DNA of 64,000 bases from Minisyncoccota bacterium (GCA_041660105.1 JBAZWZ010000002.1:57964-121963), one strand, 5' to 3'. Shown: positions 4,373 to 64,000, counted from the first letter of the stretch. Notes: a model not told the origin generated them from the letters alone. Program-made: numbers and translations.

Positions 4373-6268
4373 ATGTGTGGCATTGTTGCAATCATCACGA
4401 GTAGAAAACGAAATCTCGTCCCTGAGATTGTTTCGTCGCTCAAAAATCTTGAATACCGTGGCTACGACAGCTCGGGTATTGCCATTCTTGACCAAGGAAA
4501 GATCAAGCGTGTTCGCCGTGTTGGTGCGCCGAGTGATGTTTTTCCGCCTGATGAAATCACAAATGAACTCGCTGTCAGCGATTTAGGATTCTCTCTTGCT
4601 CTCGGACACAACCGCTGGGCGACACACGGGAAGCCCTCACTTGGAAACGCTCACCCGCATTTTGATTGTGCTGGTGAAATCGCTGTGGTTCACAATGGAA
4701 CTATCCTCAATCACGAAACCTTAAAACAAGAGCTCGTGAAGCTCGGACACACTTTTACTTCGACGACCGATACGGAGGTCGTCCCGCATATGATAGAGCA
4801 GAAAATGAAAGAGGGCTTATCTCTTAAAGATGCCTTTCTTGACACCGCAGCGCTTCTCGAGGGGAGCTTTGGACTTGCTGTCATCTCTACAAAAGAGCCA
4901 GGAAAACTTTTTATCGTTAAGCGCGGAAGTCCACTGCTCTTTGGCATTTTGAAAAACACCATCATCGCTGCGTCGAGCTCAAATGCAATTCTTTCATACA
5001 CCAACACATTCATTCCGCTTACCGATTGCGAATATGCTGAGTTTGCTATTGAGGGCGATGAGGTGACCTATCGCATCGGCACCACCTTCAACAAGAACCA
5101 GACCATCAACAAACCAGTGGAAACAATTACCGACCACTCACTCGCTGATATTTCAAAAGGTGGCTACGACTCATTTATGAAAAAAGAAATCCACGCACAG
5201 CCTTCTGTTTTTCGTACGACCATTCTCGGACGCTACGACGAGAAAACAGGAGACGCTGTCTTGGGTGGACTCATTGACCACGAAGACACGTTGAGGAGCG
5301 CGAAAGCAATCCTCACTGTTGCGTGTGGCACCGCACACAACGCATCCCTCGTTGGCGGAGCGCTCATCGAGACACTTGCGGGTATCCCCGTGAGAAGCGA
5401 AATTGCGTCGGAATTTCGCTATAAGAAAGTTCCTCTCGACCCAAAAGACACGATAATCCTTGCCACAAGTCAGTCAGGCGAAACAGCAGACACCCTCGAG
5501 TCAATCAAGGAGGCGAAGAGAAAAGGGTATAAAACATTTGGTATCGTAAACGTCGTCGGCAGCGCCATAGCCGAAGAAGTCGACGCGGGAGTATACGCGC
5601 GCGCTGGTGTCGAAGTGGGGGTCGCCTCCACAAAAGCTTTCACGGCGCAACTCGCAATATTTTATTTGCTCGCGATAAAATTTGCACGCGAGCGGGGGAT
5701 GACGGCCCAAGAAGGTCGCGCGCTCATCGCAGAGCTTGAGCAAATCCCTGAGCTTATGATGAAGACTCTTGCTGACACAGAAAAGAGAGTGATTGCCCTC
5801 ACAGAGCGCTACACGGCAAAAAATATTCGTGTGATTAATTTCCTCGGGCGTGGTATCAATGTGCACGTAGCCACCGAAGCAGCGCTCAAGTTTAAGGAAC
5901 TCACATACCTCGAAGCAGGAAGCTATCCGCTTGGCGAGCTCAAGCATGGGCCTATCGCTGTCATTGATGAAAATTCCGTCTCGGTGATCCTTATGCCGCA
6001 CGACGAACTCTTTGCGCAAAACAAAAATTCGCTTGAGCAAATCCTCTCCAAGAATGGCAATGTCATCGTCATCACTGACGAACTCGGCGCGCAAAATCTC
6101 AAAGAACAAAATGTCGACATCATCACCATCCCCACACTCAAGCATTCACTCATGTACCCACTTCTTGAGATTCTTCCCCTTCAACTTTTCGCCTATCACT
6201 ACGCAGTCGCTCTCGGAAACAATGTCGACAAACCCCGTAACCTTGCAAAATCAGTGACGGTGGAGTAA
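4373..6268 (+). CDS. glmS: glutamine--fructose-6-phosphate aminotransferase
   Basis: MCGIVAI... gives the N-terminal nucleophile Cys. SIS domains are present and the C-terminus reads DKPRNLAKSVTVE. Confidence 0.9.
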   Translation: MCGIVAIITSRKRNLVPEIVSSLKNLEYRGYDSSGIAILDQGKIKRVRRVGAPSDVFPPDEITNELAVSDLGFSLALGHNRWATHGKPSLGNAHPHFDCAGEIAVVHNGTILNHETLKQELVKLGHTFTSTTDTEVVPHMIEQKMKEGLSLKDAFLDTAALLEGSFGLAVISTKEPGKLFIVKRGSPLLFGILKNTIIAASSSNAILSYTNTFIPLTDCEYAEFAIEGDEVTYRIGTTFNKNQTINKPVETITDHSLADISKGGYDSFMKKEIHAQPSVFRTTILGRYDEKTGDAVLGGLIDHEDTLRSAKAILTVACGTAHNASLVGGALIETLAGIPVRSEIASEFRYKKVPLDPKDTIILATSQSGETADTLESIKEAKRKGYKTFGIVNVVGSAIAEEVDAGVYARAGVEVGVASTKAFTAQLAIFYLLAIKFARERGMTAQEGRALIAELEQIPELMMKTLADTEKRVIALTERYTAKNIRVINFLGRGINVHVATEAALKFKELTYLEAGSYPLGELKHGPIAVIDENSVSVILMPHDELFAQNKNSLEQILSKNGNVIVITDELGAQNLKEQNVDIITIPTLKHSLMYPLLEILPLQLFAYHYAVALGNNVDKPRNLAKSVTVE

Positions 6269-8958: not shown

Positions 8959-9035
8959 ACCAACGCCTTGGTGGTGGGTATTGATACTGAAGGGGGAAAG
9001 GGCTCTATTCTATATGTATGCGGGATATACGTACG

Positions 9036-9120
9036 TCGCACAATATATCTTTTGCGACGTGCTCAGAAATCCTGTAAGGATTACTTGAGTACGTCGCAAA
9101 AGAGCCTCCATTGTGCGACC
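9036..9120. repeat. cluster of GTCGCA(A/C)AA / TT(T/G)TGCGAC inverted repeats forming at least two hairpins
   Basis: ACGTCGCACAA-tatatc-TTTTGCGACGT and GTCGCAAAAG-agcctccat-TGTGCGAC, plus a central AATCCtgtaAGGATT hairpin. This is the 3' intergenic region of convergent genes. Confidence 0.4.
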
Positions 9121-9121
9121 T

Positions 9122-9180
9122 CGAATCAGCTGATTCTGAATTAGCAAATTCACGTCTCGGACGAAATCTTGGACATAAAC
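9122..9180 (+). repeat. copy 1 of the palindromic element (CGAATCAGCTGATTC ... CTTGGACATAAAC)
   Basis: Contains the 14-bp perfect palindrome GAATCAGCTGATTC and the shared TTGGACATAAAC module. Confidence 0.6.
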
Positions 9181-9223
9181 ATAAAAATGTGCGCACAATC
9201 CAGGTTTGCGACAAAACTAAAAA

Positions 9224-9466
9224 TTATTTTCCGAGAATTTGTGCTGTGGTAGTTGCTGTTGATGTAGCCGTTGAACTCGCTGACTCGAGTAAATCAATTG
9301 CGCTACCCGTCAGAAATTTAAATAATGGTAAAATATAATTTATCCAAGCTTCACTCAAAATTGCTATAATCTGTTTTACTATCGGCATTTGAGCCACCGC
9401 ATGCAAATCTATATTAAAATATGCGAGCCCCGCAATGATAATAACTGCCAAAAACACGATCTGCAT
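9224..9466 (-). CDS. small membrane protein (about 80 aa)
   Basis: MQIVFLAVIIIAGLAYF... has a TM helix, and AGGAGGG lies just upstream of the ATG at 9466. The gene is flanked by copies 1 and 2 of the palindromic element. The alternative longer start (MKRK at about 9562) would translate through copy 2. Confidence 0.45.
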   Translation of the reverse strand: MQIVFLAVIIIAGLAYFNIDLHAVAQMPIVKQIIAILSEAWINYILPLFKFLTGSAIDLLESASSTATSTATTTAQILGK

Positions 9467-9518
9467 AAACCCTCCTGAGTTTTTCGAAGAAAAATTCTGG
9501 CGGGTAAATCCGCGGTTA

Positions 9519-9550
9519 CGAATCAGCTGATTCGTGTCTTGGACATAAAC
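9519..9550 (+). repeat. copy 2 of the palindromic element (CGAATCAGCTGATTCG-tg-TCTTGGACATAAAC)
   Basis: 16-bp perfect palindrome followed directly by the TTGGACATAAAC module. A TAGTAAT -10-like box sits 16 nt downstream. Confidence 0.6.
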
Positions 9551-9586
9551 TTTTCTTTTCATAGTAATTATATTGTACATTGTTTT

Positions 9587-26456: not shown

Positions 26457-26548
26457 CATGTGACATTTAACAAGTGACATGTGACGAGCAACTTTTTCGC
26501 TATGCGAAAAAGTTGCTGTCAGTTGTCAGATGTCAGTGGTCAGTTGTT
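26457..26548. repeat. intergenic palindromic repeat element (TGACAT repeats + GCAACTTTTTCGC-tat-GCGAAAAAGTTGC hairpin + CTGTCAGTTGTCAGATGTCAGTGGTCAGTTGTT)
   Basis: Perfect 13-bp hairpin flanked by imperfect inverted ends (AACAAGTGACATGTGAC / GTCAGTGGTCAGTTGTT). It fills the dnaK-dnaJ spacer and related copies occur elsewhere in the window. Confidence 0.55.
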
Positions 26549-29257: not shown

Positions 29258-29812
29258 TTAGGAGCCTTTTTCTTTTCTACTGGTGCGGGCAATATATGTC
29301 TTTATATTTTCCAGATTATCGTAATATTCCGACCCAATTCTCTTATACAATGACGAAGCTCGTTTTTTGTCGGGAAACAATATCTTCTTAAACCTTTTTT
29401 CCTCAATGAGAAAATCAACTATGGCTTTATAATCGCCATCCCCAGACACTAAAATTACATCCTGGAAATCTTCTTTTCGATATAATCTTTTCATTATCGA
29501 AAAAATAATATCAGAATCAACATTTCCCTTTTTGCCACTTATCAATGCTTCGCTGTGTTGTCTAAACTTTAGAATAAAGCCAGAACTTTGAATATATTCA
29601 TAAATCTCTTGCGCCCTTTCTGTGTCTTGAATATATCCAAGGTGATAGAACGCCACTTTAACATTATATTTGTCGGCAAGATAAACCCGAAATCTCTTTA
29701 GGTCAATCTTCCACGGATCGACTTCCCTCTTCGCTGTCCCCATGTGCAAATTCTGCCCATCGATGAATGCATAATTTTTGAGTTCTTTGTTCATGGTTTC
29801 AATTCCTAACAT
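29258..29812 (-). CDS. NYN-domain (LabA-like PIN-fold) putative nuclease
   Basis: AFIDGQNL...VDSDI...VSGDGDY acidic residue pattern of NYN domains. Start uncertain (29812 or 29794). Confidence 0.7.
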   Translation of the reverse strand: MLGIETMNKELKNYAFIDGQNLHMGTAKREVDPWKIDLKRFRVYLADKYNVKVAFYHLGYIQDTERAQEIYEYIQSSGFILKFRQHSEALISGKKGNVDSDIIFSIMKRLYRKEDFQDVILVSGDGDYKAIVDFLIEEKRFKKILFPDKKRASSLYKRIGSEYYDNLENIKTYIARTSRKEKGS

Positions 29813-29825
29813 TATCCCACCATTA

Positions 29826-29910
29826 CACATTAAAAGAAAGAGTGGATTGCAATGCAATCCACTCTTTCTTAATTTTGTCTCTACCAATGGAGTTTGAAAA
29901 TCAAAGGTAC
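29826..29910. repeat. 85-bp hairpin repeat, copy 1 (AAGAAAGAGTGGATTGCA / TGCAATCCACTCTTTCTT stem + conserved 45-bp tail)
   Basis: Near-identical to 31064-31148, with compensatory loop changes that preserve the stem. It lies just 3' of the Fic gene. Confidence 0.6.
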
Positions 29911-29948
29911 CTGACCGCTTATTCTTGAGAGTCCGTGGCGAATATTGA

Positions 29949-31010
29949 TTAAATCCTTACATACCTCGTTCCCCTGCCACGGCCGATACGCTTTACTTTT
30001 CCAAGCTCGACGAGACGCTCGAGGGATTTTCTTACGGTCGCGGTAACCATACCAGTTGCACTCGCAATTTCCGCAGGGCTCGCCTCGTGGACTGACGCAA
30101 AGAATTGTAGAACCTCGCTTTGTTTTGGTGATAGGCCTTCCTCGTGTTCCCTTTCCACAAGCGCTAGCGCTCTCACTGCCTGTTCCTTTACGATAGACAA
30201 AAAGAAATTAAGCCAAGGCACGATTGAACTATTTTCCGTCTTAAATGTTTTCTGTGCTTCACGCAGAGCAAGATAGTATTCATCTTTACGTTTCTCGACG
30301 AGTTGCTCGTGCGAGACGTATTGCACAAATGTATAACCAGAGCGAAGGAGAAGCATATTGGTGAGCACACGTGAAAGGCGCCCATTACCATCTTCAAATG
30401 GGTGAATCTTCAAAAACTCTATAAGGAAATTTGCAATAATGAGGAGTGGATGAAAGCGCTTCTTCTCAAGAGCTTCATGTGTCCACAGGACGAGCTCGGT
30501 CATTTCTGCGGGTGTCTGCCATGCGGGGGTTGTTTCGAACACAATACGTACGACTTTGCCGTCTTCGCCGAGCACTCCAACTACATTTTCTTTCTTTTTG
30601 TATTCACCCCTGTGTAGGTCGTCTTTGGTTGAATATTTGAGAAGTTCTTTGTGAAGCGATTGAATAGTACTTTCACGAAGTGCCAGTGTTTGAAAACTAT
30701 CAAAAACATTTTGCAGTGTTTCGAGGTAGCCTTGTACTTCCTGGGAATCGCGGTCTGCGAATTTAGTAATTGAAAGCCCCTGCATTATCTTTTTCACTTC
30801 CTCGTCAGAAAGTTTTGATCCTTCGATACGAGTCGATGCACCTGCTGATGTCACGAGAACCGACTTTCGAAGATTGGTAATTGCCTGTGGCGTCATACGA
30901 ACACCAACACGGAAAACACCACGGGCCTCGTCTATCGCTGCCAAAAGAGCCACAATATGAGGCTCGGGGGTGTTTATTCGGTGGTCAAATTTTCGTGCGT
31001 TATCGTCCAT
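29949..31010 (-). CDS. Fic-family protein (putative AMPylase) with C-terminal wHTH
   Basis: Canonical HPFEDGNGRLSRVL Fic motif. An N-terminal STRIEG (S/T-x-x-x-E-G/N) inhibitory-helix motif suggests class II. Confidence 0.85.
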   Translation of the reverse strand: MDDNARKFDHRINTPEPHIVALLAAIDEARGVFRVGVRMTPQAITNLRKSVLVTSAGASTRIEGSKLSDEEVKKIMQGLSITKFADRDSQEVQGYLETLQNVFDSFQTLALRESTIQSLHKELLKYSTKDDLHRGEYKKKENVVGVLGEDGKVVRIVFETTPAWQTPAEMTELVLWTHEALEKKRFHPLLIIANFLIEFLKIHPFEDGNGRLSRVLTNMLLLRSGYTFVQYVSHEQLVEKRKDEYYLALREAQKTFKTENSSIVPWLNFFLSIVKEQAVRALALVEREHEEGLSPKQSEVLQFFASVHEASPAEIASATGMVTATVRKSLERLVELGKVKRIGRGRGTRYVRI

Positions 31011-31063
31011 ATTTAGTGATACTATCTAACATATGAGATTTTATCACATTTTATTAGATAAAG

Positions 31064-31148
31064 CAAAGAGTGGATTGTCGAAGACAATCCACTCTTTCTT
31101 AATTTTGTCTCTACCAATAGAGTTTGAAAATCAAAGGTACCTGACCGC
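31064..31148. repeat. 85-bp hairpin repeat, copy 2
   Basis: Direct repeat of 29826-29910, upstream of the Fic start. Confidence 0.6.
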
Positions 31149-31254
31149 AATATTCTAGGTATCTACTCATACGGACGATAGTACTGTATAAGTAGATACC
31201 TGGTGCACAAAGCTGGATTTCCTTCACTTTTTTCCGTAGTTCCCTAGTATATAC

Positions 31255-31300
31255 AAAATTTTAGAGATGTGGATTTCAAAAGGGTGCCCAATCCCCTTTC
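31255..31300 (+). repeat. 40-bp direct repeat, copy 1 (AAAATTTTAGAGATGTGGATTTCAAAAGGGTGCCC...)
   Basis: Repeated at 32095-32134 and includes an AAAGGG...CCCTTT hairpin. It lies 50 nt upstream of a 240-aa ORF. Confidence 0.55.
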
Positions 31301-31347
31301 TTCGAGTTCTGGTAACCGAGGAGCTTTAAGAGTACACTTCCTAATAT

Positions 31348-32070
31348 ATGGCAGGAAGAAAAGAAAAATCTGTTTCTGGTTCAGACCTAGCACATCCTCA
31401 TGATGTCGGTGTTACTGTGACATTTAATCAGATAGTCATTCATCCAACTTACGGCACAATACTGCTACCTGTTTATGATCACACAGACTTTTACTTTAAG
31501 TCTGCCGAATCTGCTCTGATCGAAGCCAAAAAATATCATGAAAAAATACTATCCAGCCCCGTTAATAAATCAAATTGTCGAGTCGTTTATTCAGAAAGTA
31601 CAGACTTGCCTGCATTTTTTATGTTTTCACAAAATGTCGTTATATATTCATATTTAGCTCTTGAGTACTTTGCTATAAGTTGTGCTCAATCAGTTAATAA
31701 GGTTAAGGAGTGGGAAAAGAGAAGACTAGACCAAAAATTAAAATATCTTATACAACAGGAACTTGGTATCCCTCATCTTTCTCCTGATCTTTGTAGTGCG
31801 TTTGGTGAACTTGAAAATAGAAGACACTCTTTGAACCATCCGACTATAAAGAACATAACTAATGGTCACCCTACAGAATGGGATTCTGCACATCTTGCCT
31901 GGTTAATGGTTGGGAACTATGAAAAAGTATATTTATCTGCTAAGAAAATTTATGAGGAAATTCGTAAACCTCTAATAGAATACAATAAGAAAAAACCTCA
32001 GGGTGAAGTTACTCTCACTGGAGTTAAAAGAGGTATTAAGTTTGAAAACCCAGCCAAGAAATCTTTATGA
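31348..32070 (+). CDS. hypothetical protein (240 aa), no recognisable domain
   Basis: Clean ORF on the strand opposite its neighbours, flanked on both sides by the 40-bp direct repeat. Confidence 0.6.
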   Translation: MAGRKEKSVSGSDLAHPHDVGVTVTFNQIVIHPTYGTILLPVYDHTDFYFKSAESALIEAKKYHEKILSSPVNKSNCRVVYSESTDLPAFFMFSQNVVIYSYLALEYFAISCAQSVNKVKEWEKRRLDQKLKYLIQQELGIPHLSPDLCSAFGELENRRHSLNHPTIKNITNGHPTEWDSAHLAWLMVGNYEKVYLSAKKIYEEIRKPLIEYNKKKPQGEVTLTGVKRGIKFENPAKKSL

Positions 32071-32094
32071 AACAATGGTGTTACCACTTCACGC

Positions 32095-32134
32095 AAAATT
32101 TTAGAGATGTAAATTTCAAAAGGGTACCCCCTTT
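32095..32134 (+). repeat. 40-bp direct repeat, copy 2 (AAAATTTTAGAGATGTAAATTTCAAAAGGGTACCCCCTTT)
   Basis: Lies between the convergent 240-aa ORF and the protease gene. Contains the AAAGGGTACCCCCTTT hairpin. Confidence 0.55.
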
Positions 32135-32141
32135 ATCAAAC

Positions 32142-33518
32142 CTATTCACAAAAATATGACCCACCAGAAGTCTCAAGCTCCTTTTCTTTTGAGACTGTTA
32201 TTACTATTAAATCTTTCGCTAATTTAGTGTATTTTTCCTCTTCCTCCTGTAACGATTTTAAATAGATATCTGAAGCACTGGACTCCAAACCCTCCACGAA
32301 TTTAAGTGTACTTTCTGCTTCTTTTATTCTATAACCAATTGCTTCCTTTCGTAATTTTACGACATCACTCATGACACCAGCAATAGATGAGGGTATATTA
32401 TTTGGTATGAGACTAGGCAGACTATCAAATGTTTTGCTTGCTATCTTAAAATTAGTAAGTGCATTTTCTAGGTCAGTATGTGCACCATCAATATCAATGT
32501 CTCCTATCTTCTTATACACGAAAAGTCCATTTATTATTCCTTTATTCATGCTGTCTGAACCCCTGCTCAAGGTTGAAATAAAAGACAGATAATTTTGTTT
32601 TTGATTCTCGGTATAAGTACAACTGCTCGAATACGCCGTCGTCGAACCTGGGAGGATCGTATTTTTGCCTTGTTTCAAATACGGGAGCCATGTTTTTACG
32701 ATATCAACCGGAATAGCAAATTTGATTGTTTCTCCCAAAATGACACCCTCAATCTGTTTGCTACTATAAATTGCAGTATTAATACCTACCACCTGACCAT
32801 AACGGTTTATTAAAGGTCCACCACTATTCCCTGGGTGAATTTCAGCAGAAGTTTCAAGGTAATTTTCAATTCGTCGTGAAATCGTCCCTTCCTTGAAACT
32901 CACATCTCCTTCAAGTCCAAATGGAAATCCGAAAGTAAAAACATTTTCTCCTTGAGGAAGCGACTCTTCATCAGAATTTCCAAATTTAATTATCGACAAA
33001 CCATTTTTATTTACTTTCAATAGAGCCAGATCATGAAGTTCATCCCTGCCAACAACAGTTGCTAAGGCGTAATCACTATTACTAAAAGTAACATCAGCTC
33101 TGTTGACCCCACTAATAACATGGGCGTTCGTTAAAATATATCCATTGGGCTCTATTACAAAACCACTACCACTTCCTTCAGATGTTTTTATGTAAACTAC
33201 CGCAGGCTTTACCTTTTTAATTAAATCCGTATTACCCAAAACACCAGTTGACGTTGTAGTAACTTCTTTTTTTACGGAAGGAGCATTCGTATTAGATGAA
33301 TGTTGCCCCTTTTTAAGTTCATCAACTTCTTGGCGTAGTTTTTCAATTTCCGAAAGTTGGGGGGTTGTGCTCGCTTGCTTGTCGCTCTTGGAAGGATTTT
33401 CTGCTTGGTGGATTTGATATTGTACTACTCCAAAATATCCGCCACCCCCTAAAACCAAAACGCTCGCAACAGCCACGAGAAGTATTGGTATTGGGATAAA
33501 TCCTCCTTGATTTTTCAT
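32142..33518 (-). CDS. membrane-anchored trypsin-like (S1) serine protease with uncharacterised C-terminal domain
   Basis: N-terminal TM. GSGFVI...TNAHVI (His), DLALLK (Asp) and GNSGGPL (Ser) motifs. No obvious PDZ, and about 190 aa of unknown C-terminal sequence. Confidence 0.75.
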   Translation of the reverse strand: MKNQGGFIPIPILLVAVASVLVLGGGGYFGVVQYQIHQAENPSKSDKQASTTPQLSEIEKLRQEVDELKKGQHSSNTNAPSVKKEVTTTSTGVLGNTDLIKKVKPAVVYIKTSEGSGSGFVIEPNGYILTNAHVISGVNRADVTFSNSDYALATVVGRDELHDLALLKVNKNGLSIIKFGNSDEESLPQGENVFTFGFPFGLEGDVSFKEGTISRRIENYLETSAEIHPGNSGGPLINRYGQVVGINTAIYSSKQIEGVILGETIKFAIPVDIVKTWLPYLKQGKNTILPGSTTAYSSSCTYTENQKQNYLSFISTLSRGSDSMNKGIINGLFVYKKIGDIDIDGAHTDLENALTNFKIASKTFDSLPSLIPNNIPSSIAGVMSDVVKLRKEAIGYRIKEAESTLKFVEGLESSASDIYLKSLQEEEEKYTKLAKDLIVITVSKEKELETSGGSYFCE

Positions 33519-33540
33519 TTAAATTATTATCCCACAAATA

Positions 33541-33600
33541 CACATTAAAAGAAAGAATTGGACTGACTGCTGAAGACAGTCCGTCCAGTTCCTTCTTTTA
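33541..33600. repeat. hairpin element related to the 85-bp repeat (CACATTAAAAGAAAGA... nested stems)
   Basis: Shares the CACATTAAAAGAAAGA lead and a long imperfect stem. It lies upstream of the protease gene start. Confidence 0.4.
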
Positions 33601-38719: not shown

Positions 38720-38925
38720 AAGGGCTTTGCCTCGCAAAGCCCACAACTGACAGCTAACACCGCTTACGCGGACATCTGACCGCTGATTTTCGCTTCGCGA
38801 AAATCAGCGGTAATGGTCAATTATCACACGTTTTTTGTCAAATGTTCCCCAAAATCCCCCGTGCCACTATCTAATAATCTATCCCCTGTCAGTTGTTATA
38901 TGTCAGTGGTCAGTTGTTCCCCTCT
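38720..38925. repeat. composite intergenic palindromic element (two hairpins plus inverted ACAACTGACAG ends, GTCAAATGTTCCCC module)
   Basis: Hairpins GGGCTTTGC-ctc-GCAAAGCCC and CCGCTGATTTTCGC-ttc-GCGAAAATCAGCGG. ACAACTGACAG at 38743 is inverted relative to CTGTCAGTTGTTATATGTCAGTGGTCAGTTGTT at 38886-38918. Related to the element at 26457-26548. Confidence 0.55.
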
Positions 38926-45047: not shown

Positions 45048-45119
45048 CAAAAACGTCAGAGGGCGGGATTGCCGAAGGCAGTCCCGCACTTTGACGTTTT
45101 CTGTCAGATGTCAGTTGTG
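45048..45119 (-). terminator. terminator hairpin (CGTCAAAGTGCGGGACTGCC-ttcg-GCAATCCCGCCCTCTGACG + TTTTT) fused to a partial ACAACTGACATCTGACAG repeat module
   Basis: Read on the minus strand directly after the stop of the 45132..46481 gene. Confidence 0.5.
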
Positions 45120-45131
45120 CGCACCGATACA

Positions 45132-53819: not shown

Positions 53820-54071
53820 TTATTTATACATATCCTTTCTGTGCCCAACCTTTAGAATTTTAGCCGTGTCTTTTTCAACATCAAACGCAACTCTATAATC
53901 TCCAATACGAAAACGGTATTCTCCAAATTCAAAATCTGTAAGATGTTCCGCAAAATGAAGTGGCGTCGATGCCGACATATAAAACTCAAGTTTCTCCATT
54001 ATCAACAATTGAACCTTGCGAGGAAGCTTAGAAAATTCTTTGATCGAGTTGCCCTTGAAATCGTACTTCAT
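53820..54071 (-). CDS. type II toxin, RelE/ParE family
   Basis: YRFRIGDYRVAFDVEKDTAKILKVGHRKDMYK matches the RelE/ParE consensus (YRIRVGDYRIIY...I.IGHRKD.Y). Confidence 0.85.
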   Translation of the reverse strand: MKYDFKGNSIKEFSKLPRKVQLLIMEKLEFYMSASTPLHFAEHLTDFEFGEYRFRIGDYRVAFDVEKDTAKILKVGHRKDMYK

Positions 54072-54073
54072 AA

Positions 54074-54298
54074 TTAGGCAAGTCCAAGTTTCTTGTACAA
54101 ATCCTTTGATGAAACTTCTTTTTTAGAAATGCGTGCACGTGCAATATCTTGCTTATATTTTTTTGAGGTAGACATTTGATAGTATTCTTCAAGCTGACTT
54201 ACCCTTTCACGAATGGTCTCCCATACCGAAACAGGCAAGACCACAACAGGGTTCTTGCCGAGCTTGAAAATTTGCGCTTTTTTCATCAATGTATTCAT
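54074..54298 (-). CDS. cognate type II antitoxin (74 aa)
   Basis: Immediately upstream of the toxin with a 2-nt spacer. The small basic/acidic protein has a canonical antitoxin-toxin arrangement. Confidence 0.6.
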   Translation of the reverse strand: MNTLMKKAQIFKLGKNPVVVLPVSVWETIRERVSQLEEYYQMSTSKKYKQDIARARISKKEVSSKDLYKKLGLA

Positions 54299-59449: not shown

Positions 59450-59767
59450 CTACAGAATTCTTCGAAGCATACGGGTGTTATAAAGCTGGAAACGCCTGCC
59501 TTCAACACTGAGAACACCTTCCCTGATTGCCACTGCTATCACCTCATCCTCAATAAAACCAAGCCTGACTGCGGGGGCTCCACCATCTTCTGAGGGATGA
59601 TAGAACAGTGTGACACTGAAACCCTTGTCCTCCTTAAGGAAATGGAGGGTCTGATTCTTGTCCTCCACATCGACGAGGGCCTCCTTGATGCCATACCCCG
59701 GGTGCGCGGTTGCTGGAGCAGTGTTTGCCCTGGACACAGAGCGAAAACGTTCACTTTTATTCAACAT
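59450..59767 (-). CDS. hypothetical protein (105 aa) upstream of rpmF
   Basis: Position is analogous to the DUF177/YceD genes that often precede rpmF, but the sequence is not clearly recognisable. Confidence 0.35.
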   Translation of the reverse strand: MLNKSERFRSVSRANTAPATAHPGYGIKEALVDVEDKNQTLHFLKEDKGFSVTLFYHPSEDGGAPAVRLGFIEDEVIAVAIREGVLSVEGRRFQLYNTRMLRRIL

Positions 59768-59821
59768 TTACTTCCTTTCTATTGTGTACGTACTAAAACA
59801 AGTATACCACACAAACACGCT

Positions 59822-59953
59822 TTACACAAGACCCTTCAGAAAACTTTTGCGGTGATGCTTGGTGATGCCATTCTTTTTTATTGCTTCGTAGTGTGCGCGG
59901 GTACCGTAGCCTTTGTGTTTTTCAAAACCGTACGCAGGAAACTTTTTTGCAAA
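59822..59953 (-). pseudogene. duplicated 3'-terminal fragment of rnhB (about 42 codons plus stop)
   Basis: The nucleotide sequence is about 85% identical to 60942-61071. It translates to ...[43 protein letters not shown] against rnhB ...[44 protein letters not shown]. Confidence 0.65.
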
Positions 59954-60308
59954 TATGGAAAAGAAAAAGCGCCGTACCAAAAGGTCGTGCGCTCTTGTAT
60001 TTGATGCAGTTACTTGGGAATGTACGTAATTGTTACGTACATCGTGGCGTCGCTCGAAATTGAAGTGGCCACGGAAATGCATTCCTTAACATTCTCTGAA
60101 AGAAACTTTTCCACACCTTTCTCCATTTCATCAAATCTTCCCACAGTATGGCGTGGTTGAGTGAGACAGAACGAAAGCACTTTGCACTTAGGCATCACAT
60201 ACTCCTTAGTTGTGTATGTTCACGGCGACGTGCCAGTGACTCATATGAATTAACAGTAGCATTTTAGTATAATTTTGTCAAGTGCTACAAGACTTTTGCT
60301 ACAGAACT

Positions 60309-60929
60309 TTAAAAATTGCGCCCACAATTTTTTCTTGCTATCAAAACCTCAGCATTATTCACCATAGGAGTCCCGTCCGTACGATTTCGCAATGCACGGG
60401 AGTCCATCTTGTCATAGGCAATAATCTCCCAGTCATTATATATTTCTTTTAGTTCATTTGGTTTGGGATAAAAATTTTTTGTTGATGGATTCTCATTATA
60501 AAAATCTCCCTCTGCCGTAAGAACCGATACGACGTTGAAACCACCAGCCCTTGTTTTTTCTTTCATCTGTTCTATGACTTTTCTTGCAGCAAAATCAGTG
60601 ATGTGCTGAAAAACATAAGAAACTACAATAACATCATAACTCTGGATAACACCAATTTCGACTATGTCTGCAATATGTGAACGAACAACCAAGTTTCTCT
60701 TTTTAGCCTCTTTTTTAAACTTCTCAACTCCAACCCTAGAAAGATCAATGAGTGTAACTTGAAATCCAGCGTCTGCAAGAAAAAGTGCATTTCTCCCTTC
60801 TCCTCCACCTATGTCCAATACTTCGCCACTCTTAATTAACTCTGTAATTTTTTTTACAGCTTGCTGTGGTTTCCCTCCCCTAAAATCAATATTTGGGGTC
60901 GCATAAATTTCATCATATTTATTACTCAT
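60309..60929 (-). CDS. SAM-dependent methyltransferase, TehB-like
   Basis: VLDIGGGEGRNALFLADAGFQVTLIDLS (motif I) and overall similarity to tellurite methyltransferase TehB. It lies between the two rnhB 3' copies. Confidence 0.75.
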   Translation of the reverse strand: MSNKYDEIYATPNIDFRGGKPQQAVKKITELIKSGEVLDIGGGEGRNALFLADAGFQVTLIDLSRVGVEKFKKEAKKRNLVVRSHIADIVEIGVIQSYDVIVVSYVFQHITDFAARKVIEQMKEKTRAGGFNVVSVLTAEGDFYNENPSTKNFYPKPNELKEIYNDWEIIAYDKMDSRALRNRTDGTPMVNNAEVLIARKNCGRNF

Positions 60930-60933
60930 CTGT

Positions 60934-61542
60934 TTATTCTACCACACCCTTCAAAAAACTTTTCCTGTGATGCTTGGTTATGCCGTTCTTTTTGATAGCT
61001 TCGTAGTGCGCTCGGGTGCCGTAACCTTTGTGCTTTTCAAAACCGTGCTCAGGGAACTTTTTTGCAAGAAGTGTCATACGAGCATCGCGCGCGACTTTTG
61101 CCACTATTGAAGCAAGGGCAATAGCAAGCTCCTTTTCGTCGCCCTTTATAATAGTTTCTTGATTCTTGTAATGCTCTGGTGCATAGAGCGAACCATCAAG
61201 AAGAACTTTTGCCTCATCGACATTGTGCTCGATTGCTTCGAGTGAAGCAATCATCGCCGTGCGAATAGCAGACGAAAGTCCCCTTTTATCAATCACGCTC
61301 GGCGCAACAAAAGAAACTGCGCACGAGAGATATCCGAGAGACTCAGCTTCTTTGATTTTGAGTAACCATTCTTCCCTCTTTTTGGGGGTGAGTTTTTTTG
61401 AGTCTTTTATAATAGGAAAAAGTTTTTCAACCTTCTTTTTGTGTTCAGCATAAATACACACAGCGCCGACAGCGACCGGCCCAGCAAGAGGTCCACGACC
61501 AACCTCATCGACACCAATTATGTATTTATACTTCTTCTTCAT
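60934..61542 (-). CDS. rnhB: ribonuclease HII
   Basis: IIGVDEVGRGPLAGPVAVGAV catalytic DEDD motif region, 202 aa. Confidence 0.9.
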   Translation of the reverse strand: MKKKYKYIIGVDEVGRGPLAGPVAVGAVCIYAEHKKKVEKLFPIIKDSKKLTPKKREEWLLKIKEAESLGYLSCAVSFVAPSVIDKRGLSSAIRTAMIASLEAIEHNVDEAKVLLDGSLYAPEHYKNQETIIKGDEKELAIALASIVAKVARDARMTLLAKKFPEHGFEKHKGYGTRAHYEAIKKNGITKHHRKSFLKGVVE

Positions 61543-61577
61543 ATTTCATAACTCTATAGTATCTAACAGTAAAAAAC

Positions 61578-61611
61578 AAAGCCCCTTGCGCTTTACAGCA
61601 CAAGGGGCTTT
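61578..61611 (-). terminator. terminator AAGCCCCTTG...CAAGGGGCTT with flanking A/T runs
   Basis: Lies between the stop of the 61621 gene and the rnhB start. Confidence 0.55.
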
Positions 61612-61620
61612 TCGTTGATG

Positions 61621-62106
61621 TTACCTTCGGCGCATTTTCTCCATTTCGGAAAGTTGTTTGTCGATTTGTTTATCAACTTTATTCATATCGACATCACGCA
61701 CAGGAATTACGCTGAGACATCGGATAAGGCCATTGTTGTGGACCCCAACGTCCTTCTTCATAATCTCCGCGATTTTCATAGAACGATATCGGGAGAAATG
61801 CCAAGTTGCTAAACAAAGACAGATCAAAACAGCAAAAGAAAATTTTGGAAATCCTAAAGTTGCAAGGACAAGACTTGCAATCATTGCCATTATCGCAATC
61901 ACCGCTTGGCAAATATGCGCATTTCGCATATCCCTCATCATGCTTCTCCGAAATGGCTCTTGCTCGTGAAGTTCTTTAACGTTTTTGGGCAATCGCTGGG
62001 CTATCAACGATTTTGCGCTATTCTGCTTAAATCCTTCAAACAGCAAATATAGACAGATTGTAACCAGCAAAATTGTCCCCAAAACCAAATGTAGGTTGGT
62101 CATCAT
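61621..62106 (-). CDS. hypothetical membrane protein (161 aa)
   Basis: Three hydrophobic helices. It is divergent from dnaE, and the shared upstream region carries copy 3 of the palindromic element. Confidence 0.5.
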   Translation of the reverse strand: MMTNLHLVLGTILLVTICLYLLFEGFKQNSAKSLIAQRLPKNVKELHEQEPFRRSMMRDMRNAHICQAVIAIMAMIASLVLATLGFPKFSFAVLICLCLATWHFSRYRSMKIAEIMKKDVGVHNNGLIRCLSVIPVRDVDMNKVDKQIDKQLSEMEKMRRR

Positions 62107-62184
62107 TTTCTCCTTTGTAATGAACTATATTTCATTCTATCTAAAAAGAACAATACTTCATTTTGGTGATTATGTCAAAAATTT

Positions 62185-62240
62185 CGAATCAGCTGACGGG
62201 TCACCAGAGCCGTGTCATGGGCACGTGTCTTGGACATAAA
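62185..62240 (+). promoter_or_regulatory. copy 3 of the palindromic element (CGAATCAGCTGAC ... CACGTGTCTTGGACATAAAC) in the dnaE promoter region
   Basis: TTGGACA is followed after 17 nt by TATACT at 62254-62259, and the dnaE ATG is 8 nt further on. The half-palindrome CGAATCAGCTGA is retained. Confidence 0.55.
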
Positions 62241-62267
62241 CCTTCATCAGCGATATACTGTCACTGT

Positions 62268-64000
62268 TATGACCATCGAGAAACAGCAATTTGTGCATCT
62301 TCACACACACTCTCACTACTCTCTCCTTGATGGACTCTCAAAAATTGATGAGATGATTGCACTCGCAAAAGAGCGTGGTATGAAAGCCATCGGTCTCACC
62401 GATCACGGCAACATGTACGGTGCGATTGAGTTCTATAAGAAGTGTAAAGCAGCAGGCATCAAACCAATCCTCGGCGTAGAAGCATACGTGACTGCAGGCT
62501 CACGACTCGATAAGCGCCCAGGTATCGACAACGAACGCTTCCACCTCACCCTTCTCGCAAAGAACGCACAAGGTTACAAAAACTTGATGCGCCTCGTGAC
62601 CATCTCAAACCTCGAAGGCTACTACTACAAGCCACGCATGGACAAAGAAGTGCTCCGCAAATACAGTGAAGGGGTTATTTGTTTGTCAGGATGCTTCGGA
62701 GGAGAGTTTTCTCGTGCTATTCGTCGAGGTGACCTCGAAGGGGCGGAAGCTATCGCACGTGAACATCAAGACATCTTTGGGAAAGAAAATTATTTTCTTG
62801 AAATCATGCATCACCCTGGTGTTGAAAATATTGAAGAGGTGCGCAAAGAAATCATCCGCCTCAGCAAGAAGCTCGACATCCCCCTCGTCGCCACACAGGA
62901 CTCGCACTATCTCCATGTCGAAGACCAAGATGCGCACGAAACACTTCTCGCCATCCAAACCAACGGCGACCTCAACGATGAAAATCGTTTCTCAATGAAG
63001 ACAGATCTCTTCAGCTTCATCGACGAAGAGACAGCGCTCAAAAACTTTGCATCAACTCCTGAAGCAGTGTGGAACACGGGCAAAATCGCTGATATGTGTG
63101 ATATCGAGCTCACACTAGGAAAATTTATTTTTCCAAATTTCACCATCCCTGAAGATACGACTTACGACTCTGAGCTTCGCCGACTTTGTTTTGAAGGACT
63201 TCCCCGTCGCAAACTCGAGGGAGACGAAAAGGTAATTGAGCGACTTGAGTACGAACTCTCGGTGATCAAGATGAAGGGGTACGCGGTGTACTTCCTCGTT
63301 GTGGAAGATCTCATTCGTTTCGCGAAGGAGAATAAAATCCTTGCGAACATTCGAGGGTCCGTCGCAGGCTCGATGACTACGTATCTCCTCGGGATTACGG
63401 CGGTAAACCCACTTGAATACAAGATTCCTTTTGAGCGCTTCTTGAACCCTGAGCGTCCCTCTGCTCCCGATATTGATATGGACTTTGCCGACAACCGTCG
63501 CGACGAAGTTATTGAATATTCACGCAAAAAATACGGAGACGATCACGTGGCGCAAATCGGTACATTTGGGACAATGATGGCGCGCGGTGCCGTGCGTGAC
63601 GTTGCGCGCGCGCTCGGTCACCCGTATGCTATCGGCGACAGGATTTCTCGTCTCATTCCCGAAGGCTCACAGGGTTTCCCGATGACGATCGACACTGCAC
63701 TCGAAATGGTCGACGAGCTCGCTGAACTTTACAAAAAAGACGCTGACACAAAACAGATAATTGACCTCGCAAAAAAACTCGAAGGTTGTGTGCGTCACAT
63801 TTCTGTCCATGCTGCGGGAGTCGTCATCTCCCCACTCCCCCTTTATGAATACGCGCCACTACAGTTTGACCCCAAGGGTGGAAAAATAATCACACAGTAC
63901 GATATGTACTCTGTCGGCGAAGACGGCGTCGGGCTCACCAAGTTCGACTTCCTTGGTATCCGCAATCTTTCAATATTGAGTAACGCAGTTGAGCTCGTGG
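62268..64000 (+). CDS. dnaE: DNA polymerase III alpha subunit (5' part; continues beyond window)
   Basis: MTIEKQQFVHLHTHSHYSLLDGLSKIDEMIALAKERGMKAIGLTDHGNMYG is the DnaE PHP-domain N-terminus. The ORF runs open to the window end, so the track omits it. Confidence 0.9.

What the first reader, a model, noticed from the sequence alone, without database searches (positions are those of the whole stretch)
9122..9550. Three-copy element with a perfect CGAATCAGCTGATTCG palindrome and a TTGGACATAAAC promoter-like module
Copies lie at 9122-9180, 9519-9550 and 62185-62240. The first two flank a small membrane-protein gene as direct repeats. The third sits in the divergent promoter region between a membrane-protein gene and dnaE, where TTGGACA-17 nt-TATACT lies immediately before the dnaE ATG. 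The palindrome has the CGAA...TTCG architecture of LexA-type SOS boxes (Cheo box CGAACATATGTTCG) but a different core. That fits an operator for a dimeric repressor controlling dnaE and small membrane proteins, or alternatively the ends of a small mobile element.
Basis: seen in the sequence. Interest (0 to 1): 0.7.

Follow-up and report, generated by a model that had tools for sequence, protein, structure and literature searches.

The report
Tiny mobile hairpin repeat in Patescibacteria
The three copies belong to a 32-base, two-hairpin repeat that sits at different places in related groundwater Patescibacteria genomes, so it behaves like a miniature mobile element, not a LexA-type operator controlling dnaE.

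Summary
Three same-strand copies share a 12-nt left block (CGAATCAGCTGA) and a 14-nt right block (TCTTGGACATAAAC), far beyond chance.

The operator/promoter reading does not hold.
- The same 32-nt unit, CGAATCAGCTGATTCG-TGTCTTGGACA-TAAAC, occurs about 28 times (non-redundant) in roughly 10 Yonathbacteria-like Patescibacteria MAGs and groundwater metagenomes. Most copies are base-for-base identical. They sit next to unrelated genes, in either orientation.
- Variant copies and a paralogous family keep two short hairpins through compensatory changes (6 of 10 pairs; 99% paired). That fits a folded single strand, not a dimeric repressor site.
- All three window sites are empty at the orthologous position in relatives. 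One copy found in a close relative is missing from the window.
- Copy 1 is a clean 59-61-nt insertion with at most 2 nt of target duplication. Copy 2 lies in a 45-nt in-frame insert in the 5' end of a conserved small membrane-protein gene.
- Only 3 of 28 copies have a -10 box correctly spaced from TGGACA, which is the chance level. The dnaE case is probably an incidental hybrid promoter.
- No lexA, Cheo box or transposase is in the window.

Best reading: a non-autonomous interspersed hairpin element, REP/PATE/RPE-like, with no known mobilising enzyme.

The parts
9519..9550 (+). Copy 2, type A: the 32-nt master unit. Hairpin H1 is 9519-9534 (CGAATC AGCT GATTCG). Hairpin H2 is 9535-9545 (TGTC TTG GACA). 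The tail TAAAC is 9546-9550.
   Evidence: It is identical to 18 non-redundant copies in other genomes. The covariance model scores it 51.8 bits. It is absent from the orthologous M23-small gene junction in L043 and L044, where the intergenic gap is 22 nt.
9122..9180 (+). Copy 1, type C composite. The left end of the alpha unit is 9122-9136. A nested 27-nt beta unit (TGAATTAGCAAATTCA-CGTCTCGGACG) is 9137-9163. A 5-nt linker is 9164-9168. The right end, TTGGACATAAAC, is 9169-9180.
   Evidence: The same architecture is seen in L018, L019, L022 and L015. The beta unit scores 50.1 bits. The alignment with L043 shows a clean 59-61-nt insertion between conserved flanks.
62185..62241 (+). Copy 3, type B composite. 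The left end, CGAATCAGCTGA, is 62185-62196. The gamma insert, CGGGTCACCAGAGCCG-TGTCATGGGCA-CG, is 62197-62225. The right part, TGTCTTGGACATAAAC, is 62226-62241.
   Evidence: The same insert is seen in L002, L011, L016 and L022. The element is absent upstream of dnaE in L039-L042.
62231..62259 (+). Hybrid sigma-70-like promoter for dnaE. The -35 box TGGACA comes from the element. A 17-nt spacer follows, then a resident -10 box TATACT. The dnaE ATG is at 62269, so the mRNA is leaderless or nearly so.
   Evidence: The promoter scan gives 10 of 12 matches. Relatives have their own -10 box 7 nt before the dnaE ATG and no element.
62150..62178 (-). Divergent promoter-like site, TTGACA-17-TATTGT, for the 161-aa membrane-protein gene (61621-62106). 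It abuts the left end of copy 3.
9224..9562 (-). Small membrane-protein gene. The ancestral leaderless start is the ATG at 9562. An internal ATG at 9466 has its own Shine-Dalgarno sequence. The reverse complement of copy 2 plus 13 nt forms a 45-nt in-frame insert after codon 4.
   Evidence: The protein alignment with the L043 and L044 orthologues shows a 20-22-aa N-terminal insertion that includes the element-encoded VYVQDTNQLIR.
9033..9121 (.). Array of GTCGCA...TGCGAC palindromes that together form a long imperfect hairpin, directly abutting copy 1. A related module lies at 9190-9213. These are conserved host sequence into which copy 1 inserted. They are not part of the element.
   Evidence: The 26-mer ACGTCGCAAAAGATATATTGTGCGAC is identical in the window, L043 and L044.

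Best explanation
Each copy is an instance of a clade-specific, non-autonomous interspersed repeat, called 'E' here.

Anatomy (shown):
- The minimal form is 32 nt: a 6-bp/4-nt-loop hairpin, a 4-bp/3-nt-loop hairpin and a TAAAC tail.
- Longer forms (types B and C, 57-59 nt) keep the same 12-nt left end and 12-16-nt right end. They carry one extra 27-nt two-hairpin unit inside.

Behaviour (shown): copies are gained and lost at different intergenic sites, 5' leaders and even gene 5' ends in related Yonathbacteria-like Patescibacteria.

Mechanism (inferred):
- The sequence stays near-identical because the ends and hairpins are what the copying machinery recognises.
- The likely route is copy/paste through a folded single strand by a trans-acting enzyme, in the manner of REP/RAYT or IS200/IS605-derived PATEs. 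There are no terminal inverted repeats and little or no target duplication.
- Effects on neighbouring genes are side effects. At dnaE the element's TGGACA replaces the -35 box of a leaderless promoter. At the small membrane-protein gene it sits in the 5' leader or N-terminal tail.
For: Distribution:
- There are 15 hits in about 8 Patescibacteria species-representative MAGs and 19 in groundwater metagenomes. None are in viral contigs, plasmids or phages.
- 18 non-redundant copies are identical over 32 nt, with a tail of 1-6-mismatch variants and decayed remnants.

Shared ends with variable interior.

Hairpins are under constraint:
- 99.3% of cells are paired and 6 of 10 pairs show double changes. 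0 of 500 shuffles reach this, and slid controls collapse.

Presence/absence at orthologous sites:
- Copy 1 is a clean insertion compared with L043, with at most 2 nt duplicated.
- Copy 2 is absent in L043 and L044.
- Copy 3 is absent in L039-L042.
- An rnc-adjacent copy in H41-bin067_1, whose proteins are 80-84% identical to the window's, is absent from window 56.6-57.4 kb.
- A DEAD-box helicase (81% identical between genomes) has E in its 5' UTR in L010 and after its stop codon in L024.
- The covariance model finds no copy in any of the seven relatives' loci.

Context:
- In co-directional gaps the orientation is 7 with the genes and 7 against. There are also 4-9 divergent and 2 convergent settings.
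- No gene family recurs next to E.
Against: - No mobilising enzyme was found. There is no transposase or Y1 domain among the 70 window ORFs.
- There is no IS200-TnpA or RAYT homologue in 378 kb of window plus loci.
- Copy number is low, at 2-3 exact copies per MAG. Classical REPs number tens to hundreds.
- Identity of the master sequence across species whose proteins are only 65-85% identical could also mean host-level selection for a function.
- Some loci have short flanking direct repeats that share a consensus (ACTTTNNNACTT). Their meaning is unclear: target preference, or part of a longer element.
- No within-population filled/empty polymorphism was examined, so current activity is not shown.
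Confidence: 0.65

Rival explanations
1. E is a host cis-regulatory DNA site: an operator for a dimeric repressor (LexA-like or other helix-turn-helix protein) that controls dnaE and small membrane-protein genes.
For: - Copy 2 has a 16-bp perfect palindrome.
- 17 of 18 early-examined copies lie in gaps that contain a promoter.
- Copy 3 lies between two divergent promoter-like sites.
- The sequence is extremely well conserved.
Against: - Covariation, including G.U pairs, keeps base pairing rather than half-site identity.
- The paralogous units have non-palindromic centres (AGCA, AGTA, ACCA).
- Type B copies lack the right half of the palindrome.
- Target genes are unrelated and sites are not conserved at orthologous positions.
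- There is no LexA and no Cheo box in the window.
- Copies also lie after stop codons and inside a 5' UTR or coding region.
Confidence: 0.08
2. E is a structured RNA. It would be a small cis-acting UTR element acting in stability, processing or translation, or an independently transcribed sRNA, and would work on the CGAAU...UAAAC strand.
For: - Two hairpins show compensatory changes.
- G.U wobble favours the top strand: 4 against 1 in the unit alignment, plus the U.G pair in type B.
- In about 10 loci E ends 9-37 nt before a start codon on the same strand. In L010 it lies inside a long conserved 5' UTR.
Against: - In co-directional gaps the orientation is 7 with and 7 against the genes. In several loci neither strand of E should be transcribed as part of an mRNA.
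- Folding is weak: -8.4 kcal/mol with z = -1.8 for type A, and z about 0 for type B.
- There is no Rfam match.
- The 12- and 14-nt end blocks are conserved as sequence even where they cannot pair.
Confidence: 0.15
3. E is a portable promoter, a 'mobile promoter' whose selected role is to supply a TTGGACA -35 box to downstream genes.
For: - TGGACA-17-TATACT sits before dnaE.
- TGGACA-16-TATAAT sits before a glycoside hydrolase gene in L008.
- Many genes here appear leaderless, with the -10 box 6-9 nt before the ATG.
Against: - Only 3 of 28 copies have a -10-like hexamer at 16-18 nt, against a shuffle expectation of 2.8.
- Half the copies point at gene 3' ends.
- In L036 and L010 the promoter is clearly elsewhere.
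Confidence: 0.07

Closest known systems
REP/BIME elements and REPINs mobilised by RAYT (Y1 HUH) transposases
   Same: - Both are short (about 30 nt) extragenic imperfect palindromes.
- Both show a dominant master sequence with a tail of variants.
- Both cluster into mosaic composites with other short modules.
- Both lack terminal inverted repeats.
- Both are conserved between related species at non-conserved positions.
   Different: - E has no 5' GTAG.
- E occurs as tandem or nested direct units, not inverted doublets.
- Copy number is very low.
- E is often in promoter-containing gaps, and once inside a gene's 5' end.
- No RAYT gene was found in the available sequence.
PATEs (palindrome-associated transposable elements) derived from IS200/IS605
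   Same: - Both have a subterminal hairpin near each end and conserved non-complementary termini.
- Both lack terminal inverted repeats.
- The one alignable E insertion shows essentially no target-site duplication.
- Strand asymmetry is present in E (G.U pairs on one strand).
   Different: - E is 32-59 nt; PATEs are typically 100-300 nt.
- No fixed 4-5-nt target is evident 5' of E (ACTT in about 12 of 28 copies only).
- No TnpA or TnpB was found.
Rickettsia palindromic elements (RPEs)
   Same: - Both are selfish palindromic repeats in reduced genomes of host-dependent bacteria.
- Both can sit in frame inside protein-coding genes. Copy 2 adds 15 codons to a small membrane protein's N-terminus.
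   Different: - RPEs are 100-150 bp and unrelated in sequence.
- Only one in-frame case is seen here, and the gene may instead use an internal start.
LexA SOS boxes of the Cheo type (CGAAC-N4-GTTCG)
   Same: Both have CGAA...TTCG outer bases and dyad symmetry.
   Different: - E's palindrome is 16 bp with a different core.
- It covaries as a hairpin stem.
- It is not linked to lexA, recA or uvr genes.
- It is not conserved upstream of dnaE.
Mobile promoters, and IS or Correia-type elements with outward-facing -35 boxes
   Same: At dnaE the element's TGGACA pairs with a resident -10 box at 17 nt to give a hybrid promoter.
   Different: This spacing is no more frequent than chance across copies. 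Promoter donation looks incidental.

Membership tests
LexA operator (Cheo-type SOS box) | 14-bp CGAAC-N4-GTTCG dyad with half-sites conserved as sequence | tested here: not met
   E has CGAAT-N6-ATTCG. Variants change both arms in a compensatory way or to G.U. No Cheo-like box is in the window with up to 1 mismatch.
LexA operator (Cheo-type SOS box) | Sites upstream of a conserved DNA-damage regulon (lexA, recA, uvr, imuA/B-dnaE2) across species | tested here: not met
   Neighbours are unrelated: dnaE, DEAD-box helicase, ABC ATPase, a glycoside hydrolase, pilM-like, asnB, rpsL, tRNAs. dnaE in 4 relatives has no E.
LexA operator (Cheo-type SOS box) | A lexA gene in the genome | tested here: inconclusive
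   None of the 70 window ORFs is LexA-like. The window is only 64 kb of the genome.
REP/REPIN-RAYT | Short extragenic imperfect palindrome repeated in the genome, with one dominant master sequence | tested here: met
   18 identical 32-mers plus variants. Hairpins are supported by covariation.
REP/REPIN-RAYT | Conserved GTAG at the 5' foot of the hairpin; inverted doublets (REPINs) | tested here: not met
   There is no GTAG. Multi-unit copies are direct or nested, never inverted pairs.
REP/REPIN-RAYT | Tens to hundreds of copies per genome | tested here: inconclusive
   There are 3 copies in 64 kb here and 2-3 exact-pattern hits per MAG. Whole genomes could not be scanned with the model.
REP/REPIN-RAYT | A RAYT (Y1 HUH) gene in the same genome, often flanked by REPs | tested here: inconclusive
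   No Y1_Tnp domain is in the window. phmmer with IS200 TnpA and YafM against 378 kb gave no hit. The rest of the genomes was not available.
MITE (DDE-transposase-dependent) | Terminal inverted repeats | tested here: not met
   The left end CGAATCAGCTGA and the right end TCTTGGACATAAAC are not complementary.
MITE (DDE-transposase-dependent) | Target-site duplication of fixed length | tested here: not met
   The filled site (window) and empty site (L043) differ by the element plus at most 2 nt. Flanking direct repeats in L010, L028 and L008 share a consensus between loci and are absent from the window copies.
IS200/IS605-derived PATE | Subterminal hairpins, no TIR, no TSD | tested here: met
IS200/IS605-derived PATE | Insertion 3' of a fixed tetra- or pentanucleotide; cognate TnpA present | tested here: inconclusive
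   The 5' flank is ACTT in about 12 of 28 copies and otherwise T-rich but variable. No TnpA was found in the available sequence.
CRISPR or TIGR-type guide arrays | Regular repeat-spacer arrays next to cas or tas (Nop-domain) genes | tested here: not met
   Copies are solitary, or two at most (L021, spaced 33 nt). No Cas or Nop domain is in the window. TIGR array features were taken from PMC12045711.
Any Rfam RNA family | Covariance-model match at or near the gathering score | tested here: not met
   There were 0 hits at gathering score in the window. Permissive scans gave only chance-level hits with E > 0.1.

The most novel reading that the evidence does not exclude
E represents an undescribed class of ultra-short (27-32 nt) two-hairpin mobile elements in Candidate Phyla Radiation bacteria.
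- They are defined by conserved 12- and 14-nt non-complementary ends, with no TIR and no TSD.
- They can nest in one another and insert into promoters, 5' UTRs and, in frame, into gene starts.
- They would be copied by an enzyme not yet recognised, either an HUH-type protein outside known RAYT/TnpA families or a different single-strand mechanism.
- If so, streamlined CPR genomes carry an active repeat system that reshapes promoters such as that of dnaE.
Probability: 0.3. Interest if true: 0.65.

Novelty: new variant of a known kind. Interest (0 to 1): 0.42.

Why it matters
Patescibacteria/CPR genomes are small and usually described as repeat-poor. Their non-coding DNA is almost unexplored. I found no paper holding either block of this sequence in a Patescibacteria context.

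- A clade-wide, near-invariant 32-nt hairpin element that moves between sites would be a handle on genome plasticity in these uncultivated episymbionts. It rewires a dnaE promoter and sits inside a gene's 5' end.
- It would also be a practical marker for tracking populations.
- It could serve as bait for finding the enzyme that copies it.
- For annotation, it warns against reading this conserved palindrome as an SOS or regulatory box.

Tried and rejected
- SOS/LexA box: rejected. See the membership test. The Patescibacteria SOS paper (Sanchez-Osuna et al. 2017, PMID 28618189) is not held in the library and could not be read.
- General promoter module: rejected by the spacing test, 3 of 28 against 2.8 expected.
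- Mobile cassette carrying the small membrane gene between copies 1 and 2: rejected. The gene is at the same place after the M23 peptidase gene in L043 and L044, without E.
- CRISPR-like mini-array: L021 has two units 33 nt apart, but there are no further repeats and no cas genes.
- TIGR-Tas arrays: no Nop-domain protein and no array.
- DnaA-box or oriC association: two loci have DnaA-box-like 9-mers nearby, but the window shows no enrichment.
- tRNA-linked or tRNA-derived: there are no tRNAs in the window, and only some loci have tRNAs nearby.
- Mini-ORF on the bottom strand (ATG TCC AAG ACA CGA ATC AGC TGA): the frame is not kept in types B and C, and there is no Shine-Dalgarno sequence. Treated as coincidence.
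- Phage or plasmid origin: no hits.
- Linked gene: no gene family recurs within 4 kb of E apart from ubiquitous ABC ATPases.
- Locating the window's own contig by exact protein look-up failed twice.

Full report

Yes. The window holds three same-strand copies at 9122-9180, 9519-9550 and 62185-62241.
- The 16-mer CGAATCAGCTGATTCG with up to 3 mismatches occurs 3 times against 0.29 expected. No shuffle out of 100 reaches 3.
- The 14-mer TCTTGGACATAAAC is exact in all three copies.
- Aligning the three loci shows that only two blocks are shared: a left block, CGAATCAGCTGA, and a right block, TCTTGGACATAAAC. They are 5, 33 and 31 nt apart.
- The perfect palindrome exists only in copy 2.
- A covariance model of the unit, run over the whole window with filters off, finds these three sites and nothing else above noise.
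- Rfam and tRNA scans are empty.

**2. Anatomy**

The minimal unit (type A, copy 2) is 32 nt:
- H1: CGAATC-AGCT-GATTCG
- H2: TGTC-TTG-GACA
- tail: TAAAC

Copy 1 (type C) is the same unit with a 27-nt paralogous two-hairpin unit inserted after position 15. That 'beta' unit reads TGAATTAGCAAATTCA-CGTCTCGGACG.

Copy 3 (type B) carries a different insert, 'gamma': CGGGTCACCAGAGCCG-TGTCATGGGCA-CG, placed after position 12.

Beta units also occur on their own in other genomes. All three types share the 12-nt left end and the 12-16-nt right end, while the interior varies. That is the pattern expected if the ends are what is required in cis.

An alignment of 14 distinct units was scored against the two-hairpin structure:
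- 99.3% of cells are paired.
- 6 of 10 pairs have changes on both sides, for example C-G to U-A at three positions.
- 0 of 500 shuffles reach this, and slid controls collapse.
- G.U pairs favour the CGAAT...AAAC strand, 4 against 1, plus the U.G pair in type B.

The units were collected with a loose pattern that did not require pairing at the covarying positions. Thermodynamically the hairpins are weak: -8.4 kcal/mol with z = -1.8 for type A.

**3. Distribution**

- A pattern scan of one genome per bacterial species found 15 copies in about 8 Patescibacteria MAGs. They are labelled Candidatus Yonathbacteria, Minisyncoccia, 'Patescibacteria group', and one labelled Saccharibacteria. Two obvious chance hits were also returned.
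- A metagenome scan found 19 more copies, mostly from Hainich, Crystal Geyser and Rifle-type groundwater.
- Viral contigs, plasmids and phages have none.
- After removing duplicates there are about 28 loci.
- 18 units are identical over all 32 nt. The rest differ by 1-6 bases, and decayed remnants exist, for example at L030 4196-4225.
- Flanks are unrelated between loci, apart from short tandem motifs (ACTTTNN, GTTGTTA) that often surround the element in other genomes but not in the window.
- In one lineage E is embedded in a longer mosaic of other palindromic modules.

**4. Context**

| Setting relative to E's orientation | Non-redundant loci |
|---|---|
| Co-directional gap, E with the genes | 7 |
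| Co-directional gap, E against the genes | 7 |
| Divergent gap | 4-9 |
| Convergent gap | 2 |

- Adjacent genes are unrelated: dnaE, DEAD-box helicase, ABC ATPases, a glycoside hydrolase, pilM-like, asnB, rpsL, gyrA, pyk, tRNAs and assorted membrane proteins.
- No family recurs within 4 kb of E except ubiquitous ABC ATPases.
- The strand carrying CGAAT...AAAC has negative local GC skew in 21 of 28 copies. This is a possible orientation bias that I cannot explain.

**5. Orthologous-site tests: the decisive evidence**

(a) dnaE.
- Four relatives with DnaE 68-74% identical have rnhB, or another gene, directly divergent from dnaE. Their gaps are 15-142 nt, each has its own -10 box about 7 nt before the ATG, and none has E.
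- The window additionally has a 161-aa membrane-protein gene and E between rnhB and dnaE.

(b) rnc.
- Window 48.5-59 kb is syntenic with contigs of MAG H41-bin067_1, with proteins 80-84% identical.
- That genome has E 4 nt after the rnc stop codon. The window has a terminator hairpin and two small genes there, and no E.

(c) Copy 1.
- The region after the small membrane-protein gene aligns with L043, whose M23 peptidase is 77% identical, through conserved GTCGCA...TGCGAC modules.
- The window differs by a clean insertion of the 59-nt element plus at most 2 nt.

(d) Copy 2.
- In L043 and L044 the small gene follows the M23 gene after 22 nt. It starts at a leaderless ATG (MKNN.../MKKR...).
- In the window the same ATG (9562) is followed after four codons by the reverse complement of E plus 13 nt. 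This is a 45-nt in-frame insert. An internal ATG with a strong Shine-Dalgarno sequence, which the relatives lack, lies at 9466.

(e) DEAD-box helicase.
- This gene is 81% identical between L010 and L024. It has E inside its long conserved 5' UTR in L010 and just after its stop codon in L024.

So positions are not conserved, while the sequence is.

**6. What it is not**

Not a LexA-type operator:
- The covariation is hairpin-type.
- Unit centres are non-palindromic in the paralogues.
- Type B lacks the right half of the palindrome.
- No LexA, other obvious regulator or transposase lies next to any copy. Pfam scans of all 70 window ORFs show housekeeping genes, two histidine kinases, a Fic-wHTH protein, a NYN-domain protein and ParE.
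- No Cheo-type box is in the window.

Not a general promoter:
- TGGACA-17-TATACT before dnaE is a good match at 10 of 12.
- Only 3 of 28 copies have a -10-like hexamer at 16-18 nt, against 2.8 expected.
- In L036 and L010 the promoter is clearly elsewhere.

Not CRISPR or TIGR.

**7. Most likely mechanism**

Shown:
- E is a repeated, structured, end-defined sequence.
- It is inserted at some sites and missing at the orthologous sites of relatives, without terminal inverted repeats and with no appreciable target duplication.

Inferred:
- It is copied in trans through a folded single strand, as with REP/RAYT or IS200/IS605-derived PATEs.
- The requirement for end and hairpin recognition would keep a master sequence dominant.

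Not shown:
- The enzyme is unidentified. No Y1/HUH homologue was found in 378 kb of available sequence, using query sequences recalled from memory. Whole genomes could not be searched.

At dnaE the insertion lies 12 nt upstream of the -10 box, and E's own TGGACA sits where a -35 box should be. The promoter therefore probably survived as a hybrid. At the small membrane-protein gene, E is in the mRNA's 5' end in antisense orientation. It may have shifted translation to the internal start.

The rivals (operator, structured RNA, mobile promoter) are scored in their own sections.

**8. Comparison with known systems and novelty**

E works most like REP/PATE-type hairpin repeats, with an RPE-like ability to sit in frame in a gene. 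It fails the defining tests for:
- REPs: no GTAG, no inverted doublets, no RAYT seen.
- MITEs: no TIR, no TSD.

I therefore class it as a new variant of a known kind. No paper containing either sequence block in this context was found.

**9. Verdict**

- The SOS-operator interpretation is not supported.
- The 'mobile element' alternative is supported in modified form: each copy is itself an inserted element.
- Interest is moderate. This is a neat, previously undescribed repeat family in CPR bacteria with an unknown mobilisation route, but it is of a familiar general kind.

Noticed in passing
window 9033-9121 and 9190-9213; L043 about 5700-5960; L044 about 5600-5640: An array of GTCGCA-N10-16-TGCGAC palindromes lies downstream of the small membrane-protein gene. 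The 26-mer ACGTCGCAAAAGATATATTGTGCGAC is identical at the orthologous place in three genomes whose M23 peptidases are only 72-77% identical. This is a conserved positional element (operator, terminator or ncRNA) with no Rfam match.
   Followed up: partly
window 26516-26548, 38886-38918, 45102-45125, 38752-38770 (-): Tandem heptamer arrays, (C)TGTCAGT repeated 3-4 times, sit next to terminator-like hairpins in gaps between same-strand genes, for example dnaK/dnaJ. Related arrays (ACTTTNN, GTTGTTA, TGTAAGT) occur in other genomes and often flank the E element there.
   Followed up: partly
window 59597-62106: This region is rearranged compared with relatives, in which L32, rnhB and dnaE are adjacent. 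Positions 59826-59952 are an 87% copy of the 3' end of rnhB (60941-61067). A TehB-like methyltransferase gene (60309-60929) and a 161-aa membrane-protein gene (61621-62106) are inserted.
   Followed up: partly
window 29800-33560: This looks like a variable island. A 64-nt repeat (29855-29918 and 31085-31148, 98% identical) brackets a gene for a Fic protein with a winged-helix domain. Further repeat pairs lie at 31254/32094 and 29811/33526. A NYN-domain gene is adjacent, and GC falls to 0.36 at 32-34 kb.
   Followed up: no
window 62254-62271, 9560-9578; L039-L044 gene starts: Many genes in this clade appear leaderless, with a TAnnnT -10 box 4-9 nt before the ATG and no Shine-Dalgarno sequence. 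Others, such as the small genes at 56.7-57.3 kb, have a TTGACA-17-TAnnnT promoter plus an AAGGAGGG Shine-Dalgarno sequence.
   Followed up: partly
window 53820-54298: A ParE-like toxin gene (53820-54071) with a small upstream ORF (54074-54298), probably its antitoxin, lies next to smc.
   Followed up: no
L043 1219-1503: A free-standing GIY-YIG endonuclease gene sits between ftsW and murG in a relative. It is absent from the window's otherwise syntenic mraY-ftsW-murG-gltX-M23 block.
   Followed up: no
dnaE homologues: Nearly all close DnaE homologues in the database are 580-1000 aa and labelled 'partial'. In L039 and L041 a separate OB-fold (tRNA_anti-codon) ORF follows dnaE. This suggests that DnaE is split, or regularly broken at contig ends, in this clade.
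   Followed up: no
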